Program-made: the position numbers
From: Phycisphaerae bacterium
GTDB taxonomy: Bacteria; Planctomycetota; Phycisphaerae; UBA1845; Fen-1342
Direction: 5' to 3'
DNA length: 64,000 nucleotides
NCBI GenBank assembly: GCA_050115495.1
Contig: JASFQK010000010.1
Span: forward strand, 1 to 64,000
Shown here: in pieces, positions 27,001 to 33,000 of the stretch
Layout: each line of letters starts with the position of its first letter
How positions within the stretch are numbered: the stretch's first letter is position 1

Positions 27001-30000
27001 GCCGGCGACGCGGCCGAGCGACGACGAATAGTGCCAGAATCCGCCAGAAGACGCGTTCCGGCGACACACGAGTGTTGTCTGGCGCTCGCGGGGGAATCGG
27101 TCGGCAGCGCGGAATCAGCGGAGCAGGTCACTGGCGTGCGCGGACCGCCACGCCGATGTAATCTGCGGCGGAGGGTGAGTGCGGCCGTGCTGCCGCCGGT
27201 CTAGACGGGCCTCTCCAGCCAGTCCGGGTCTTCGATCGACTTGATGACCCAGCCCAGGATGTCCGGTGGAGGTGGCGTATCCTGGTTCACCGGGGAGTTG
27301 CCGCCCGTGTCCAGCCATTCCTTGACCCTGTCGGGCATCGCCTTGCCGTGCTCTTCGGCCCGCTTGCGGCATCGTGCCGCAACCCATTCACCCATGCGTG
27401 TCTCGTAGCTGTAGTCGTACTCGTTCATCTTTCTCCAGTCCGGGTTCACGATGGACTTGACGAGCCAGCCCAGTACCTCCGCGGGCGCCCGGGTATCTTG
27501 GTCGATCGGCGTATCGCCGTGGCTGTCCAGCCAGGCCCTGACTGCCTTGGGCATTGGCCGGTGGTGCACTTCGGCCCGTTTGCGGCATCGCGCCGTGATC
27601 CACGCACCGACTCGCTGCTCATGTTTGTGTTTGTCCCCGTGCATGGTCTTGAGTATACGGTGCGGCGTGGGCGGGGCAATGCAGCGGACAGGCGCACGGT
27701 TGTTGAAGGTTGCTTGTCTGTGTCGACGAAGCCGGTGGCCTGCGGTCCGCGGCGGTAGGTGATGTGGGGGACGTCGGGAACGGTTCCGGCGGCGGGGGCG
27801 GACGCGGCAACCTCGGCGACTCGGACGTGTACAAGGGAGTGGGCGGCGTTTGGAATGAGCTTGCCGGCGTGCGGGGCTCGACGTTGACTCCAGTGTGCGA
27901 TTCGGGAGGTGTGGGATGACCAGGGCACGACGTCTGTTGGTTTGTCTGGTGGGTGTGGTGGTGATTCTGGCGGGTGCCCGCGGCGACAGTGCCCTGGAAT
28001 ATCCTGCTCGCCGGATCTTCGCGTGTGCCTCTGGGAAGTACGGCTTCAATGTGGCGGCGACGGTGCAACGGGGTGTGATCAAGGAAATCAAAGGACGGCT
28101 TTTCACGTACGACGACAAAGGGAACGAGCGGACGCTGTGGGAACACGCGCTACCCTTCCTTCCAAAGAACGTACTGGTCAGCAATGATGGCGTCGTCGTG
28201 TCAATCGATGAGTGGTACCGGTCTGGTTATGCGCACTCGCTCGTGGTGATCGATGCGGCGGGGGGCGTCGTGGCCGATCATGCGCTGGAGGCGATCCTCA
28301 CGCCGGGGGAGATTCGCGACCGCGTGTTTCACACGGTGTCGAATCGCGTCTGGGCGAGCGGCGCGAAGTACGACTTCGAGAAGACGCGGTTGGTGATCAC
28401 GTTGAGCTGGGGCGAGCGCGTGCTGGTCGATCTGGCGACGGGTGAGATCACGCGGGATTGAGGGCCGACGTAGAGGTCGGACGCCACGTTGGCGTGCGGG
28501 GCGTTTGTTGGTATTCGACGTCGGCCACGGGGGGCCGACGCTACCAGATGACCGACGCAACGTGCGGCCGTCAACACACCGGTTACAAACCGGTGCTACA
28601 GAGAAGACGTTCGGTGCGGGGACCGACGCTGCGACTAGCGCTTGATTGAGCGGATGAACTCCTGCACCTCGGGGATCTGGCCCTGGTAGATGAGGTAGCC
28701 GTTGTAGGGCTCACGCAGCGTGATCTCGTCGCTGACGGGGGTGAGCATGATGCGGCGGACCTCGTCGCGGTCGTCGGACTGGCCGAGCGCCCAGCAGAGC
28801 TTCATGTAGGCGACCTCGGGCAGCATGTTCGCCGCCGGGACGACGCCGAGTTCCATGATCTCGCGGCCCGTCTCGTACACGTACATCTGCACGTAGCCCC
28901 AGAGCGTCTGCACCGTCATGTACATGTGCACGCCGGCGGCGGTCGCTCGGGCCAGGGCGTCGTACAGCGGCTTGTTCACGTGGCCGAGACCCGTGCCGGC
29001 GATGATGATGCCGCGATAGCCCTTCTCGACGATCGCGTCGACGATGTCGGGGTTCATGTTCGGGTAGTAGTAGAGGATGGTCACCTTCTCTTCGAACGCC
29101 GTGTTGATGGTGACCTCGCGGTCCGTTCGTCGATGACGGTAGTCGGGCCGTAGCGGCGTGATCTTGCGCGGGTCGACCGTGGCCAGCGGCACGTCGCCGA
29201 TCGTGCGGAAGGTCGAGCGATAGCTGGAGTGCATCTTGCGGACGCGCGTGCCGCGGTGCAGCAGGCCGTACTCGTCCGACGTCGGGCCGAACATGCAGAC
29301 CATCACCTCGGCGAGGTCGCTCTCGGCGGCGGCCTTCACGGCGTTGATGAGATTGAGGGCAGCGTCGGATGAGGGGCGGTCGCTCGAACGCTGCGAGCCG
29401 ACCATGACGATGGGCACCGGCGGGTTCTGCACCATGAAGGTGAGGATGGCCGCGGTGTGGTGCATCGTGTCGGTGCCGTGGCCGACCACGACACCGTCGA
29501 CGCCGTTGGCGATCTCCTCACCGATGCGCTGGGCCAGCTTGATGTACTGCTCGGGGCCCATGTTCTCGCTGAAGACGCCGTAGAGCTTCTCGGTGCGCAG
29601 GTTGCAGATGTCGGCCAGCTCGGGCACGGAGCCGTAGAGCTCGCCGGGGGAGAAGGCGGGAATGACGGCGCCGGTGCGGTAGTCGAGGCGGCTGGCGATG
29701 GTGCCGCCGGTACCGAAGAGGACGATGTTCGGCTTGCGCTCGTCGAAGGGGAATTCCTTCTCGGGGATCTTGTAGTGGGCCTCGCGGCGGCCGCGCTCGT
29801 GGATCTTGGTGATGGTGTCCGCGGCGATGCCGATGTTGTAGCCGCTGATCAGCTTGATGACGATGTGCTTGTCATCGGCCGTTTCGGAGCGGGGGAGGAT
29901 GATGCCGGCGAACTGACCGCCGGTGGATTCGATCTCGACGTCGCTCCACACGCCGACGTTGAACTTCTTCAGCGTGGCGGCGCCGGGGCCGCGGTAGCCT

Positions 30001-33000
30001 TTCAGGTCGTTGTTACTCATCGTTTCGCGGTTTCCTTGCGAATCTGGTCGGAGGGGACGTCGAGCTCGGCCCGGAGCAGGCTGGCCAGGCGCGTGCCGGC
30101 GAAGCGGCCGACGTAGGCGGTCATAAGCTCACCCATGAGATAGCGGTACTTCTTGCCGCGGTTGGCGAAGCGCTCGTCGCCGCGCTTGGCGATCAGGGCG
30201 CTCATGCTGTCGCGCACTTCCTGCTCGGCGGCGGGTTGTATGTTCAGGGCGGCCAGGGCGGTCGTGACGCGCTCGTCGCCGTTGCCGTTGGGCGGCTCGT
30301 GCTGAAGGAGGTAGAGCAGAAGCTCGGCGATGCCCTCGCGGGCCAGCTTGCCGCCGGCGTGGGCCCGGAAGACGGCGAAGATCTCGTCATCCGTCAGGCG
30401 GTCGGGGTTGAGCCCCTGGCGGCGGTAGGCCTTCAACTGGCGGCAGAGCGTGACCGCCGCCAGCGTCGGGGCGATCTTCAACTCGTCGACCAGGCGGCCG
30501 AAGAGCGTCGTGCGGTCGGAGAGGGCCAGCGGGACGATGGTGTCCTCGGGGATGCCCAAGTCGCGGTACTGCGCCTCGCGCTCCCAGATGTACACGGGCA
30601 GGTCGGTCCGGGTGCGCTCGACGCGGGCGGGCTCGATGGCCAGCGGGGGCAGGTCGGTGTCGGGGTACATGCGCTCGGCACCGGGCAGGACGCGCTCGAA
30701 GCCGGTGGTACCGTCCTGGAGGACCTGGCGGGTATCGTTGGGCACGCCCTGCGTGGCCTCGCGGGCGCGGATGATGATCTCGTCGCAGGCGGTCGTCGTG
30801 TCGCGCTCGTCGCCCCAGACGAGGAGCAGGGCATCGTGCTCGTCGGCCCGGGTGCGGCGGCGGAGAGCCTTCCAGTCGCGGGCGGCGAGGGCCTCGGTGG
30901 CTGTGTCGGAGTGCACGAGGTTGGGCAGTCGCGTCAGGCAGGCGATGACCCGCACGCGGTCGGAGAACTCCTTCGCGAAGGTGGTGTGCTCCTGCGTGTC
31001 GGTGTTGAGGATGCCGGCGAAGCCCTTGAGCACGACGCACTTGACCCTCAGGCCGTCGGCCAGGGCGTTGCGGATCGGCTCGTAATGGACCTTGGTCAGC
31101 ATGCCGGTGACGTCGTGCGTGCTGTGGGCGAAGCTCTCCGGCGTGACGCCGCGGTCCTTCAGCGTTTCGCGAATCTGGAGGAGCGACCACTGCCGGCGGG
31201 CCTCGTTGTAGACCAGGCGCGGGATGCGCCAGATCTGGGGCACGCCCTTGATCTCGACGCGCGTGCCGCCACGGATGCTGACGTTGACGTCCTCGCGGGC
31301 GGCGCCGTAGCCGGTGCGGACCTTGTGCGTGCTGCGGCAGATCTTGCGGATGATCTGGCAGACGTCGGCGGTCTCCTGCGGCGTGTGCATGTCGGGCTCG
31401 GTGACGGCCTCGATCAGCGGCATGCCCAGCCGGTCGGTGAGCAGGACGCGGTCGTGGCCGCTGTCGGAGACCTCACGGCAGGAATCCTCCTCGATGGAGA
31501 GCTGCCGCATGCGGATCCGCCGGCCGGCGTAGGGCAACCAGCCGCCGACGCCGACGATCCCGGTGCGCTGAAAACCGGTGGGGATCGAGCCGTCGAGATA
31601 TTGTTTGCGGGCGATGTGCAGCTCACTGACGATATTCATATGCAGGAGCAGGCAGACTTCGAGCGTGATGTCGAGGGCCTCGTCGTCGATGAAGAACGGC
31701 GGGGTGTCGTCAAACTCGTAGGTGCAGACCGTGCTGTGATGGATGCGGTAATAGATGTTCTTCCGGGTCTTTTTCTCCATCAAGGCGGTGCCGTCGTACT
31801 CGCCGAGCTCGGAGAGCGTGGGCCGCATGTGACGGAGAATCTCGGCGTCGTACTCGCCGCTGTAGCGCCCGGCGGGGCAGCGGCAGAAGAGCTTGGTGCG
31901 CGTGAGAAGCTGTTGATGAACCTCCAGGCCGGACATCAGGCCGATATTGGCATAGTCCTCGGCGGTCATCTCCTCGAACGGCTTGAACGACGTCATAAGC
32001 GGCACTCTCCTGCTTCCGCGGACTTCGAGCCCGGTATCTTAACGCGGCGCGGCCAAACACCCAAACGGCCCGCCGGCGGTCGGCGAATCCCCAGCGGCCG
32101 GCCGGGCGGTTACAATGCGGCCCGGTGCAAAAGGAGGTGCCGGGTGCGGATTGTGTGTGAACCCAGCGTGTACCTGGTGGGCCGGCAGACGGTGGACGCC
32201 GCGGCCGTGGCCCGTTTCCTGGACGAACACGGCCTGTCCTGGTCGACGGATACCGAGGTCGGGGCCGAGACGCTCTGCGAGATGGCCGGCCGGGTCTGCT
32301 ACATGTCCTTCGGCCAGGGCCGCAAGACCAACGCCGAGTACCTGGGCAATATCATCGATTCGGAGCACGGCTCGGTCCTGGAGCATGCCGCCTGGAACGT
32401 GCTGATCACCGGCGTGTCGCGATCGTTCACGCACGAACTGGTGCGGCACCGGGCCGGGTTCGGCTATTCACAGCTCTCGCAGCGGTACGTGGACGAGAGC
32501 ACGGCCGATTTCATCGAGCCGGACTGCATCGCCGAGGACCCGGAACTGCACACCGTTTGGCAGGAGGCGATCGAGCAGGCCCATGCGGCGTACGTGCGGC
32601 TGGTCGCCGGCTTGCAGCGGCGGTTCGCGGATGAGCCGTCGGGGACGATGCGGCGGAAGATGGCCCGGCAGGCGGCGCGGAGCGTGCTGCCTAACGCCAC
32701 GGAGACGAAGATCTTCGTGACGGGGAACGGGCGGGCTTGGCGCCATTTCATCGAGATGCGGGCCAGCGAGCACGCCGAGGTGGAGATCCGCAAGGTGGCC
32801 CTGAAGATCCTGCGGCTACTCCAGGTGGAGGCGCCGCACGTGTTCGGCGATTACGAGGTTATCAGACTGGACAGCGGGGTGGAGGTGGCCCGCACCGGGC
32901 ATCGGAAGGTTTGAGCCGGCCGGCTGAAGGAGCAGCTTGTGAGGACGATGCGGAGGTTCCCGGGCCGGTGGCTGGCGCTGCTGGTCGTGGTCGGCGGGGC

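What a model noticed while it worked through the whole genome (the two positions that open the first line are those of the whole stretch)
28635..31996. Archaeal-type GatDE amidotransferase operon in a bacterium that also has GlnRS, AsnRS and GatCAB
g01409-g01408 encode full-length GatE (659 aa) and GatD (461 aa), the tRNA-dependent Glu-tRNA(Gln) amidotransferase described as exclusive to archaea, as an overlapping gatE-gatD operon. It is no contamination: a conserved bacterial GatDE group spans this planctomycete order, Ignavibacteria, Kapabacteria and Calditrichia, and nearly always co-occurs with GlnRS, so it is not needed for ordinary Gln-tRNA synthesis.
Evidence so far: NCBIfam GatE/GatD equivalogs; TIGR00134 476 bits vs cut 320, over cut in 36 of 151 order genomes; PDB 2d6f/1zq1 GatE E5e-98, GatD E2e-117 over full length; gatD directly downstream of gatE in 88 of 110 loci, GatD 65-91% identical across phyla; GlnRS in 34 of 37 GatE+ genomes, GatB in 27 of 37; both tRNA-Gln have the bacterial U1-A72 pair rather than the archaeal A1-U72.
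(Added by a program. Inside this text positions count along the whole contig: contig position 1 is position 1 of the stretch shown here. "Call 12" and the like, gene names such as g00115 and contig names such as C1 are that model's own, and its searches are not shown. The text may have been shortened before it was handed on; [...] marks where a part breaks off. The agent that wrote the report below was given it as the finding of a first reader that could run no searches.)

Follow-up and report, generated by a model that had tools for sequence, protein, structure and literature searches.

The report
Bacterial GatDE that can replace GatCAB
This planctomycete carries an intact copy of GatDE, a tRNA-amidating enzyme that reviews call archaea-only; it belongs to a large bacterial branch whose distribution suggests that it stands in for the usual bacterial enzyme GatCAB and may build asparagine, not only glutamine, on tRNA.

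Summary
An intact gatE (659 aa)-gatD (461 aa) operon sits on a planctomycete contig, with catalytic residues kept and purifying selection. The genome also has GlnRS, AsnRS, GatCAB and two glutamine synthetases. GatE occurs in 40 of 161 genomes of the order and in Ignavibacteria, Kapabacteria and Calditrichia. These form one bacterial clade whose nearest archaeal rows are Asgard-labelled; the donor is not proven (AU p=0.21).

Results added here:
- gatA and gatB are both missing in 9 of 39 GatE-positive genomes (G084, whose gatDE is broken, excluded), against 2 of 122 others, so GatDE seems able to replace GatCAB.
- AsnA is depleted where GatDE is present (stratified p=0.01), and one genome has decayed gatDE around an asnA gene.
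- glnA and asnA recur as neighbours.
- The near-invariant archaeal Gln240 is lost.

Best reading (0.45): a U1-A72-adapted, GatCAB-like amidotransferase that probably accepts Asp-tRNA(Asn) as well as Glu-tRNA(Gln). The substrate is untested and synthetase signatures are mixed. NCBIfam already labels these proteins, and this scan noted bacterial GatDE before (68 notes, at least 57 genomes). I found no open-access paper describing it.

The parts
30017..31996 (-). gatE, 659 aa: kinase/transamidase subunit of the tRNA-dependent amidotransferase, bacterial clade
   Evidence: TIGR00134 476 bits, NF003107 526 bits; PDB 2d6f_C E=5e-98; model pLDDT 95.6 with best folds 1zq1_C and 2d6f; H27, E169, E196 (= Mth His15, Glu157, Glu184) invariant in 105 rows
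31238..31324 (-). GatE residues 225-253: short loop beside the first base pair plus the KGVP motif; P253 lies opposite Mth Gln240, which is Q in 69 of 72 archaeal-type rows but P/S/H/A in the bacterial clade
   Evidence: loop position per PMC2811023 passages; a tRNA contact for Gln240 is recalled, not confirmed
30788..31075 (-). GAD-like insertion domain (residues 308-403), the GatE-specific domain absent from GatB
   Evidence: PF02938 31.6 bits, cut 23.4
30062..30505 (-). helical/YqeY-like tail (residues 498-645), divergent, below the Pfam cut-off
   Evidence: PF02637 19.5 bits, cut 27; low conservation in the clade; confidently modelled as helices
28635..30020 (-). gatD, 461 aa: asparaginase-type glutaminase subunit with GatD_N domain
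   Evidence: TIGR02153 501 bits, NF003217 507 bits; PF18195, PF00710, PF17763; T107, T183, D184, K262 invariant in 82 of 82 rows; only asparaginase-like gene found in the genome by tblastn with GatD
30017..30020 (-). ATGA overlap of the gatE stop and gatD start (translational coupling)
   Evidence: sequence

Best explanation
gatE-gatD encode a working GatDE of a distinct bacterial clade that does the job of bacterial GatCAB on bacterial U1-A72 tRNAs. Mechanism by homology: GatD hydrolyses Gln or Asn, ammonia passes through the tunnel, GatE phosphorylates the side-chain carboxyl of the acid on the tRNA and amidates it. SHOWN: intact genes, catalytic residues, fold, selection, co-occurrence patterns. 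[quoted passage not shown] Its use in cells with GlnRS and AsnRS would be (a) asparagine synthesis on tRNA(Asn) from glutamine made by GlnA, and (b) rescue of tRNA mischarged by relaxed AspRS/GluRS. In this genome it is redundant with GatCAB; in relatives it is the only amidotransferase left.
For: (1) Replacement of GatCAB: 9 of 40 GatE-positive order genomes lack a GatB match and all 9 also lack GatA over cut-off; they lie in 8 genera of 4 families. Of 121 GatE-negative genomes 6 lack GatB, 4 of these have a GatA match (3 over cut-off, 1 cut by a contig end), and the other two are 87% and 55% complete. With G084 (broken gatDE) moved to the negative side: 9/39 vs 2/122, Fisher p=5e-5; high-quality genomes 8/35 vs 0/90 (kin are not independent). 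In 50 non-planctomycete carriers GatB was found in only 23. (2) Asn link: AsnA in 6 of 40 GatE-positive vs 57 of 121 negative genomes; stratified by family with G084 moved, OR 0.23, p=0.0098. asnA lies directly beside gatE in L041, L043, G043 and G084; in G084 (97% complete, GatB kept) gatE has lost residues about 384-590 and gatD is a 56-residue remnant on either side of asnA. The complete genome G199 has GatDE, AsnRS, GlnRS and GS but no GatB, AsnA or AsnB match. (3) glnA lies next to the operon in G001, G020, G058, G147, G158, L053 and L044. Spending Gln to make Gln-tRNA beside GlnRS would be futile; spending it on Asn would not. (4) GluRS has Arg at the T. thermophilus Arg358 position in 17 of 19 GatB-less and 7 of 7 GatB-bearing non-planctomycete carriers examined, which leaves little Glu-tRNA(Gln) there. 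In the window's order it has Gly in 60 of 61, so Glu-tRNA(Gln) is plausible here. [quoted passage not shown] (6) dN/dS 0.22-0.31 (gatE) and 0.12-0.16 (gatD) against 5 relatives.
Against: No activity or tRNA binding was tested. The GAD-like insertion, modelled to clash with ND-AspRS in archaeal GatDE, is kept, and the GatB 3-10 turn that reads U1-A72 was not acquired. AspRS gives no support: 14 of 20 GatB-less carriers have the two-residue gap of the discriminating T. thermophilus enzyme and only 1 has the His of P. aeruginosa ND-AspRS; the window genome's AspRS is mixed, Leu plus Gly. AsnB-type genes occur in 161 of 161 order genomes, and AsnB absence is not tied to GatB loss in the 50 other carriers (7/27 vs 7/23), though some AsnB homologs amidate peptidoglycan instead (PMC5485061, listing only). 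This genome has a candidate AsnA-like AsnRS paralog on C38. 3 of the 9 GatCAB-less genomes have AsnA as well. asnA beside an intact gatDE (L041, G043) can equally mean that it supplies Asn to GatD. Earlier scan notes report links to tRNA-Gln and glnS in other lineages (not checked). Arg358 is an imperfect marker (PMC3927822 passage).
Confidence: 0.45

Rival explanations
1. Classical function kept: a Glu-tRNA(Gln)-only amidotransferase retuned to U1-A72. It repairs or uses Glu-tRNA(Gln) from a relaxed GluRS and gives a second route to Gln-tRNA with Asn as nitrogen donor, sparing free glutamine.
For: All characterised GatDE are Glu-specific and use Asn nearly as well as Gln (PMC2330236 passages). 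The insertion domain that binds ND-GluRS is kept. GluRS has Gly at position 358 in 60 of 61 order genomes examined, including all 7 GatCAB-less ones fetched. glnA neighbours fit 'two ways to Gln', and asnA neighbours fit 'Asn supply'. Earlier notes report tRNA-Gln and glnS linkage (unchecked).
Against: GluRS Gly does not track GatE presence. In 24 of 26 non-planctomycete carriers examined GluRS has Arg. AsnA is depleted, not enriched, in carriers. GlnRS is present in 37 of 40 carriers, and the 3 without it keep GatB.
Confidence: 0.32
2. Diverted from tRNA: the pair acts on a free or carrier-bound acid, or as an ATP-gated asparaginase/glutaminase in nitrogen metabolism.
For: GatD is far more conserved (71-91%) than GatE (47-73%) across phyla. 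The tRNA-binding tail is divergent, and short-tailed forms exist (G016, 571 aa). In GatB-less non-planctomycete carriers both GluRS and AspRS look discriminating by crude markers. Neighbours are metabolic genes; no aminoacyl-tRNA synthetase for Glu, Gln, Asp or Asn and no real tRNA-Gln/Asn gene was found beside the operon in the flanks examined. This genome has no other asparaginase.
Against: Full cradle, insertion and tail fold are kept, with invariant basic residues. Loss of GatCAB specifically in carriers points to an overlapping tRNA-dependent task. Archaeal GatD is inactive without tRNA-bound GatE.
Confidence: 0.15
3. Selectively near-neutral passenger or binning artefact: an archaeal gene pair picked up recently, or contamination.
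For: Patchy distribution (0 of 34 in family f6, about 45% in f1 and f7); one decayed copy (G084); expression not shown.
Against: Host-like GC3, dN/dS well below 1, one well-supported bacterial clade of 102 distinct loci plus tens of 50%-identity clusters, presence in a complete genome (L103) and in bacterial gene context.
Confidence: 0.03

Closest known systems
Archaeal GatDE Glu-tRNA(Gln) amidotransferase (M. thermautotrophicus PDB 2D6F; P. abyssi PDB 1ZQ1)
   Same: Both subunits full length; GatD_N, asparaginase domains and Thr/Thr-Lys-Asp residues; GatE cradle with His/Glu/Glu metal ligands, GAD-like insertion, helical tail; same fold (TM 0.81-0.85 by target length); over the equivalog cut-offs.
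   Different: Bacterial host with GlnRS, AsnRS and often GatCAB; no A1-U72 tRNA-Gln; separate clade with fixed signatures (RKQYLDG, EEDSCRE, KGVP for KGVQ, YPDTD for YPETD); operonic gatE-gatD; substrate unknown.
Asgard-labelled GatE (Heimdallarchaeota cluster of P0037; Thorarchaeota P0081; Odinarchaeota P0111)
   Same: Nearest archaeal rows; share Y93, Y133, P139 and D446 largely with the bacterial clade; P0037 is 40% identical and sister to the clade (SH-aLRT 93, 94, 97).
   Different: They keep Q253, G217 and I/T/L233; labels come from MAG names and 3 of the 6 Asgard-like rows have none; archaeal monophyly not rejected (AU p=0.213).
Bacterial GatCAB (dual Asp/Glu amidotransferase)
   Same: Same chemistry and GatB/GatE core; reads U1-A72; kept beside GlnRS and AsnRS for Asn synthesis in Bdellovibrio, Thermus, Deinococcus (PMC4206432 passages); distribution here suggests interchangeability.
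   Different: GatA amidase and GatC instead of GatD; no insertion domain; uses a 3-10 turn that the bacterial GatE lacks; the window GatE scores far below GatB cut-offs.

Membership tests
GatDE | GatE subunit: GatB/GatE catalytic domain plus GatE-specific insertion plus YqeY-like tail | tested here: met
   tail below Pfam cut-off but aligned and modelled
GatDE | GatE metal ligands His15, Glu157, Glu184 (Mth numbering; PMC2330236) | tested here: met
   H27, E169, E196 aligned, invariant
GatDE | GatD subunit: N-terminal GatD domain plus type I asparaginase with Thr nucleophile and Thr-Lys-Asp triad | tested here: met
   T107, T183, D184, K262 invariant in 82 of 82; matching to the archaeal residue numbers is recalled
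GatDE | GatD and GatE occur together | tested here: met
   adjacent in 83 of 110 loci; in 10 genomes searched with GatD, mostly ones without an adjacent gatD, full-length gatD found in 9 and a remnant in 1
GatDE | alpha2beta2 complex with ammonia tunnel | not tested
   no complex prediction was run; it would pass by likeness to solved structures
GatDE (canonical archaeal system) | Host is an archaeon lacking GlnRS | tested here: not met
   bacterial contig and genome, GlnRS 763 bits
GatDE (canonical archaeal system) | Substrate tRNA-Gln with A1-U72 | tested here: not met
   both tRNA-Gln are U1-A72; A1-U72 was seen only in tRNA-Trp among the tRNAs checked
GatDE (canonical archaeal system) | Non-discriminating GluRS partner | tested here: inconclusive
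   bacterial-type GluRS with Gly at Tth Arg358 in the order, Arg in 24 of 26 other carriers examined; the marker is imperfect
GatDE (canonical archaeal system) | Amidates Glu-tRNA(Gln) and not Asp-tRNA(Asn) | not testable with these tools
   needs an enzyme assay
GatCAB | GatA, GatC and GatB without insertion, with 3-10 turn | tested here: not met
   the window proteins are GatE/GatD; the genome's own GatCAB is elsewhere

The most novel reading that the evidence does not exclude
An Asgard-related GatDE entered bacteria once, switched from Glu-tRNA(Gln)/A1-U72 to Asp-tRNA(Asn)/U1-A72 (or both), and became a third, unrecognised route to asparagine that has repeatedly displaced GatCAB and trades places with AsnA in Planctomycetes, Ignavibacteria, Kapabacteria and other phyla.
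Probability: 0.3. Interest if true: 0.82.

Novelty: new variant of a known kind. Interest (0 to 1): 0.55.

Why it matters
Reviews up to 2022 call GatDE exclusively archaeal and an archaeal signature protein. They explain the absence of GlnRS in archaea by GatDE-tRNA(Gln) co-evolution, and leave open why archaea need two amidotransferases. A broad bacterial clade that coexists with GlnRS, works with U1-A72 tRNAs and can apparently stand in for GatCAB is a natural experiment on all three points. It gives candidate residues (Q253, G217, I233) for first-base-pair specificity. It also means that surveys which counted only gatCAB may have misjudged Asn pathways and synthetase specificity: for example B. 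marinus was listed as an unexplained GatCAB-less exception (its GatDE status was not checked here). GatE/GatD should not be used as archaeal markers in binning. The limits: it is a known enzyme family, already labelled by pipelines, and its substrate is still an inference.

Tried and rejected
- Glutamine-synthetase replacement: rejected. The genome has two GS genes, and 5 of 5 GatB-less carriers tested have GS-family matches.
- GluRS type explaining GatE presence: rejected. Gly in 33 of 33 GatE-positive and 27 of 28 GatE-negative genomes fetched (61 of 161 genomes examined).
- A genome where GatDE is the only route to Gln- or Asn-tRNA: none in the order. Among 50 other carriers, G181 and G201 (no GatB, no GlnRS found), G185 and G195 (no GatB, no AsnRS found) and G169, G200 (no GluRS/GlnRS match at 1e-40) have unknown completeness and point both ways, so they were not used.
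- AsnB as a discriminator: uninformative.
- First AsnRS search: too strict, because an insertion splits the match; repeated with the genome's own AsnRS.
- Single-sequence structure model: useless (pLDDT 34.7); the alignment-based model was used.
- Expression: not shown. The one RNA run gave a few 151-nt contigs at depth about 2, and DNA cannot be excluded.
- No plasmid copy of the bacterial type. No promoter, minus-strand terminator or Rfam match at the operon.
- The careful bootstrap tree did not finish; supports are SH-aLRT or SH-like only.
- Literature searches for a bacterial GatDE and for residue roles found no such paper. The library lacks most subscription journals. Sheppard and Soll 2008 (JMB), Oshikane 2006 and Schulze 2006 were not read and are known to me by recall or citation only.
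- No complex prediction was run.

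
Full report
1. Observation. The minus strand holds gatE (31996-30017, 659 aa) and gatD (30020-28635, 461 aa), coupled by an ATGA overlap. 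Both exceed the NCBIfam equivalog cut-offs (GatE 476/320 and 526/456 bits; GatD 501/324 and 507/310). They match the two solved GatDE structures over nearly their full length. An alignment-based model of GatE has pLDDT 95.6, and its best folds are 1zq1_C and 2d6f. The metal ligands H27, E169 and E196 correspond to Mth His15, Glu157 and Glu184. The GAD-like insertion is present. GatD's T107, T183, D184 and K262 are invariant in 82 of 82 rows. GC3 is host-like (0.93, 0.94), and dN/dS against five relatives is 0.22-0.31 and 0.12-0.16. The neighbours are bacterial. The genome (92% complete) also encodes GlnRS, AsnRS, one GluRS, one AspRS, GatA, GatB, a GatC-like ORF, two GS and an AsnB-type gene. 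Both tRNA-Gln and tRNA-Asn have U1-A72.

2. Distribution and origin. GatE is found in 40 of 161 order genomes. It is also in 80 loci whose record titles name Phycisphaerae, Ignavibacteria (including Melioribacter roseus), Kapabacteria, Calditrichia, Rhodothermia and Myxococcota; several other titles look mislabelled (best 80 of 146). gatD is adjacent in 83 of 110 loci, of which 102 are distinct. Where it is not adjacent it is usually elsewhere in the genome. With the best 150 hits of an exhaustive search, a FastTree gave a 64-row bacterial-type clade at 100. Mixture-model trees gave 99-100 for the clade, 93-97 for clade plus P0037, and 98 for clade plus six Asgard-like rows against the other archaeal-type rows (SH-aLRT only). 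A member of P0037's cluster is labelled Heimdallarchaeota, P0081 Thorarchaeota and P0111 Odinarchaeota. The other archaeal-type rows carry no labels and are taken as archaeal by similarity. With GatB as outgroup, the AU test does not reject all archaeal GatE forming one clade (p=0.213). An Asgard donor is therefore the best tree, not a demonstrated fact.

3. What it does. It is not needed for translation as such: of 40 carriers 37 have GlnRS and 39 AsnRS, and every exception keeps GatB. It does not replace GS.

The clearest signal is overlap with GatCAB. Nine carriers lack gatB, and all nine also lack gatA. gatA lies on another contig than gatB in this genome, so the two are partly independent checks. 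Among non-carriers only two incomplete genomes lack both. Counts are 9/39 vs 2/122, or 8/35 vs 0/90 in high-quality genomes, with G084 moved to the negative side because its gatDE is broken. The nine span 8 genera in 4 families; kinship still inflates the p values. In 50 non-planctomycete carriers GatB was found in 23. Thus this order nearly always keeps at least one amidotransferase despite having both direct synthetases, and GatDE suffices.

Which substrate? For Asn: AsnA is present in 6 of 40 carriers and 57 of 121 non-carriers (family-stratified OR 0.23, p=0.0098). asnA is adjacent to gatE in L041, L043, G043 and G084. In G084 gatE is internally deleted and gatD is a remnant around asnA, while GatB is kept. 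The complete genome G199 has no GatB, AsnA or AsnB match, although its name suggests a protein feeder that may import Asn. glnA is adjacent to the operon in five order genomes and two further loci. GluRS has the discriminating-type Arg in 24 of 26 non-planctomycete carriers examined. For Gln: in this order GluRS has Gly at that position in 60 of 61 genomes, irrespective of GatE. The insertion domain that in archaea binds GluRS and is modelled to exclude AspRS is kept. AspRS markers are mixed, and in 14 of 20 GatB-less carriers they resemble the discriminating Thermus enzyme. AsnB-type genes are universal in the order. This genome has an AsnA-like AsnRS paralog of unknown activity. Three GatCAB-less carriers also have AsnA.

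At sequence level the bacterial GatE did not gain the GatB 3-10 turn. It did change positions that are near-invariant in archaeal-type rows: Q253 (= Mth Gln240) to P/S/H/A, G217 mostly to R, and I233 to A/G/T (144 bacterial-type vs 72 archaeal-type rows). That Gln240 touches the first base pair is my recall; I found no open text for it.

4. Verdict on mechanism. Most likely (0.45) is a GatCAB-like, U1-A72-tolerant amidotransferase active on Asp-tRNA(Asn) and probably Glu-tRNA(Gln), used for Asn supply and for rescue of mischarged tRNA. Next is a Glu-only enzyme, perhaps with Asn as donor (0.32), then a tRNA-independent role (0.15), then passenger or artefact (0.03). The chemistry is inferred by homology and the substrate from genome patterns only.

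5. What is known. Passages read in PMC8762117, PMC9499178, PMC2811023, PMC2330236, PMC2943598 and PMC1635274 call GatDE exclusively archaeal, archaeal-specific or now found only in archaea. PMC7373986 places it in archaea; PMC9976931 names it only in passing. Two bacterial surveys did not consider it: PMC3927822 has no occurrence of 'GatDE' in its main text (passages), and PMC4206432 has it only in a reference (passages, five rows of Table S1, all of Table S2). Arg358 rests on passages of PMC2978374, PMC12088422 and PMC3927822. PMC13425635 gave one passage of no bearing. PMC5485061 and PMC8554201 were seen as search listings only. Searches found no paper on bacterial GatDE; subscription papers and unseen supplements may hold a mention. 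NCBI pipelines already name such bacterial proteins GatE. This scan has 68 earlier notes on bacterial GatDE in at least 57 genomes. One of them gave me the lead to test asparagine genes; I tested it in this order, not in that note's phylum.

6. Score. By protein family it is a member of GatDE. By host and tRNA determinant it fails the canonical archaeal system. Hence a new variant of a known kind. A specialist would be surprised by the breadth and by the apparent replacement of GatCAB, and the questions are directly testable in a cultured species; but the enzyme family is known, auto-annotated, and this copy is one of hundreds. Interest 0.55; 0.82 if the switch to asparagine is shown.

Noticed in passing
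G000 contig C38:34753-35784 (-) (L157:4754-5785): Catalytic-domain-only AsnRS paralog (344 aa, no anticodon domain), below all NCBIfam cut-offs; nearest Atlas clusters include 'asparagine synthetase A family'. Possible tRNA-independent Asn synthetase.
   Followed up: partly
G084 C252:3132-10936 (L263, L256): Decayed gatDE: gatE with an internal deletion, asnA directly behind it, and a 56-residue gatD remnant about 5 kb further on.
   Followed up: yes
window 28506-28550: Short intergenic repeat just downstream of gatD; 187 BLAST hits in the genome and very high depth in metagenome contigs; REP-like.
   Followed up: partly
G000 C2:117971-119476 (L160): AsnRS with an internal insertion of about 50 aa, shared by 148 of 161 order genomes; six genomes have another AsnRS type.
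   Followed up: no
G000 C1:220609-222255 (L155): GluRS with a roughly 55-aa insertion after the KMSK region in families f1 and most f2, and Gly at the Arg358 position across the order despite GlnRS.
   Followed up: partly
G000 C19 c[101400,101473] and C34 [51084,51156]: Two atypical tRNA genes: a tRNA-Arg(ACG) lacking the D-loop GG, and a CAT-anticodon tRNA with a Gln-like D-arm and unpaired first position.
   Followed up: no
G016 C17 (L346:785-2497): Short (571 aa), more divergent GatE with gatD on another contig, in a 95% complete genome where GlnRS was not found; GatB and AsnA present.
   Followed up: partly
window 22581-23309 and 23523-24278: Two tandem paralogous ORFs; the first has a weak Imm11 match.
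   Followed up: no
window 17568-17799: Cobalamin riboswitch (RF00174, 107 bits).
   Followed up: no
window 32144-32914 (+): thyX, divergent from gatE; not a recurrent neighbour in other loci.
   Followed up: yes
L039:8181-8507, L040:4008-4746: Small nucleotidyltransferase/HEPN-like gene pairs (recognised by eye) inserted between gatE and gatD.
   Followed up: no
G000 C14:95882-97775 (L343): The single strong AsnB-type gene lies near an Fpg-like and a MurJ-like gene (by eye), so it may serve envelope amidation rather than Asn synthesis.
   Followed up: no
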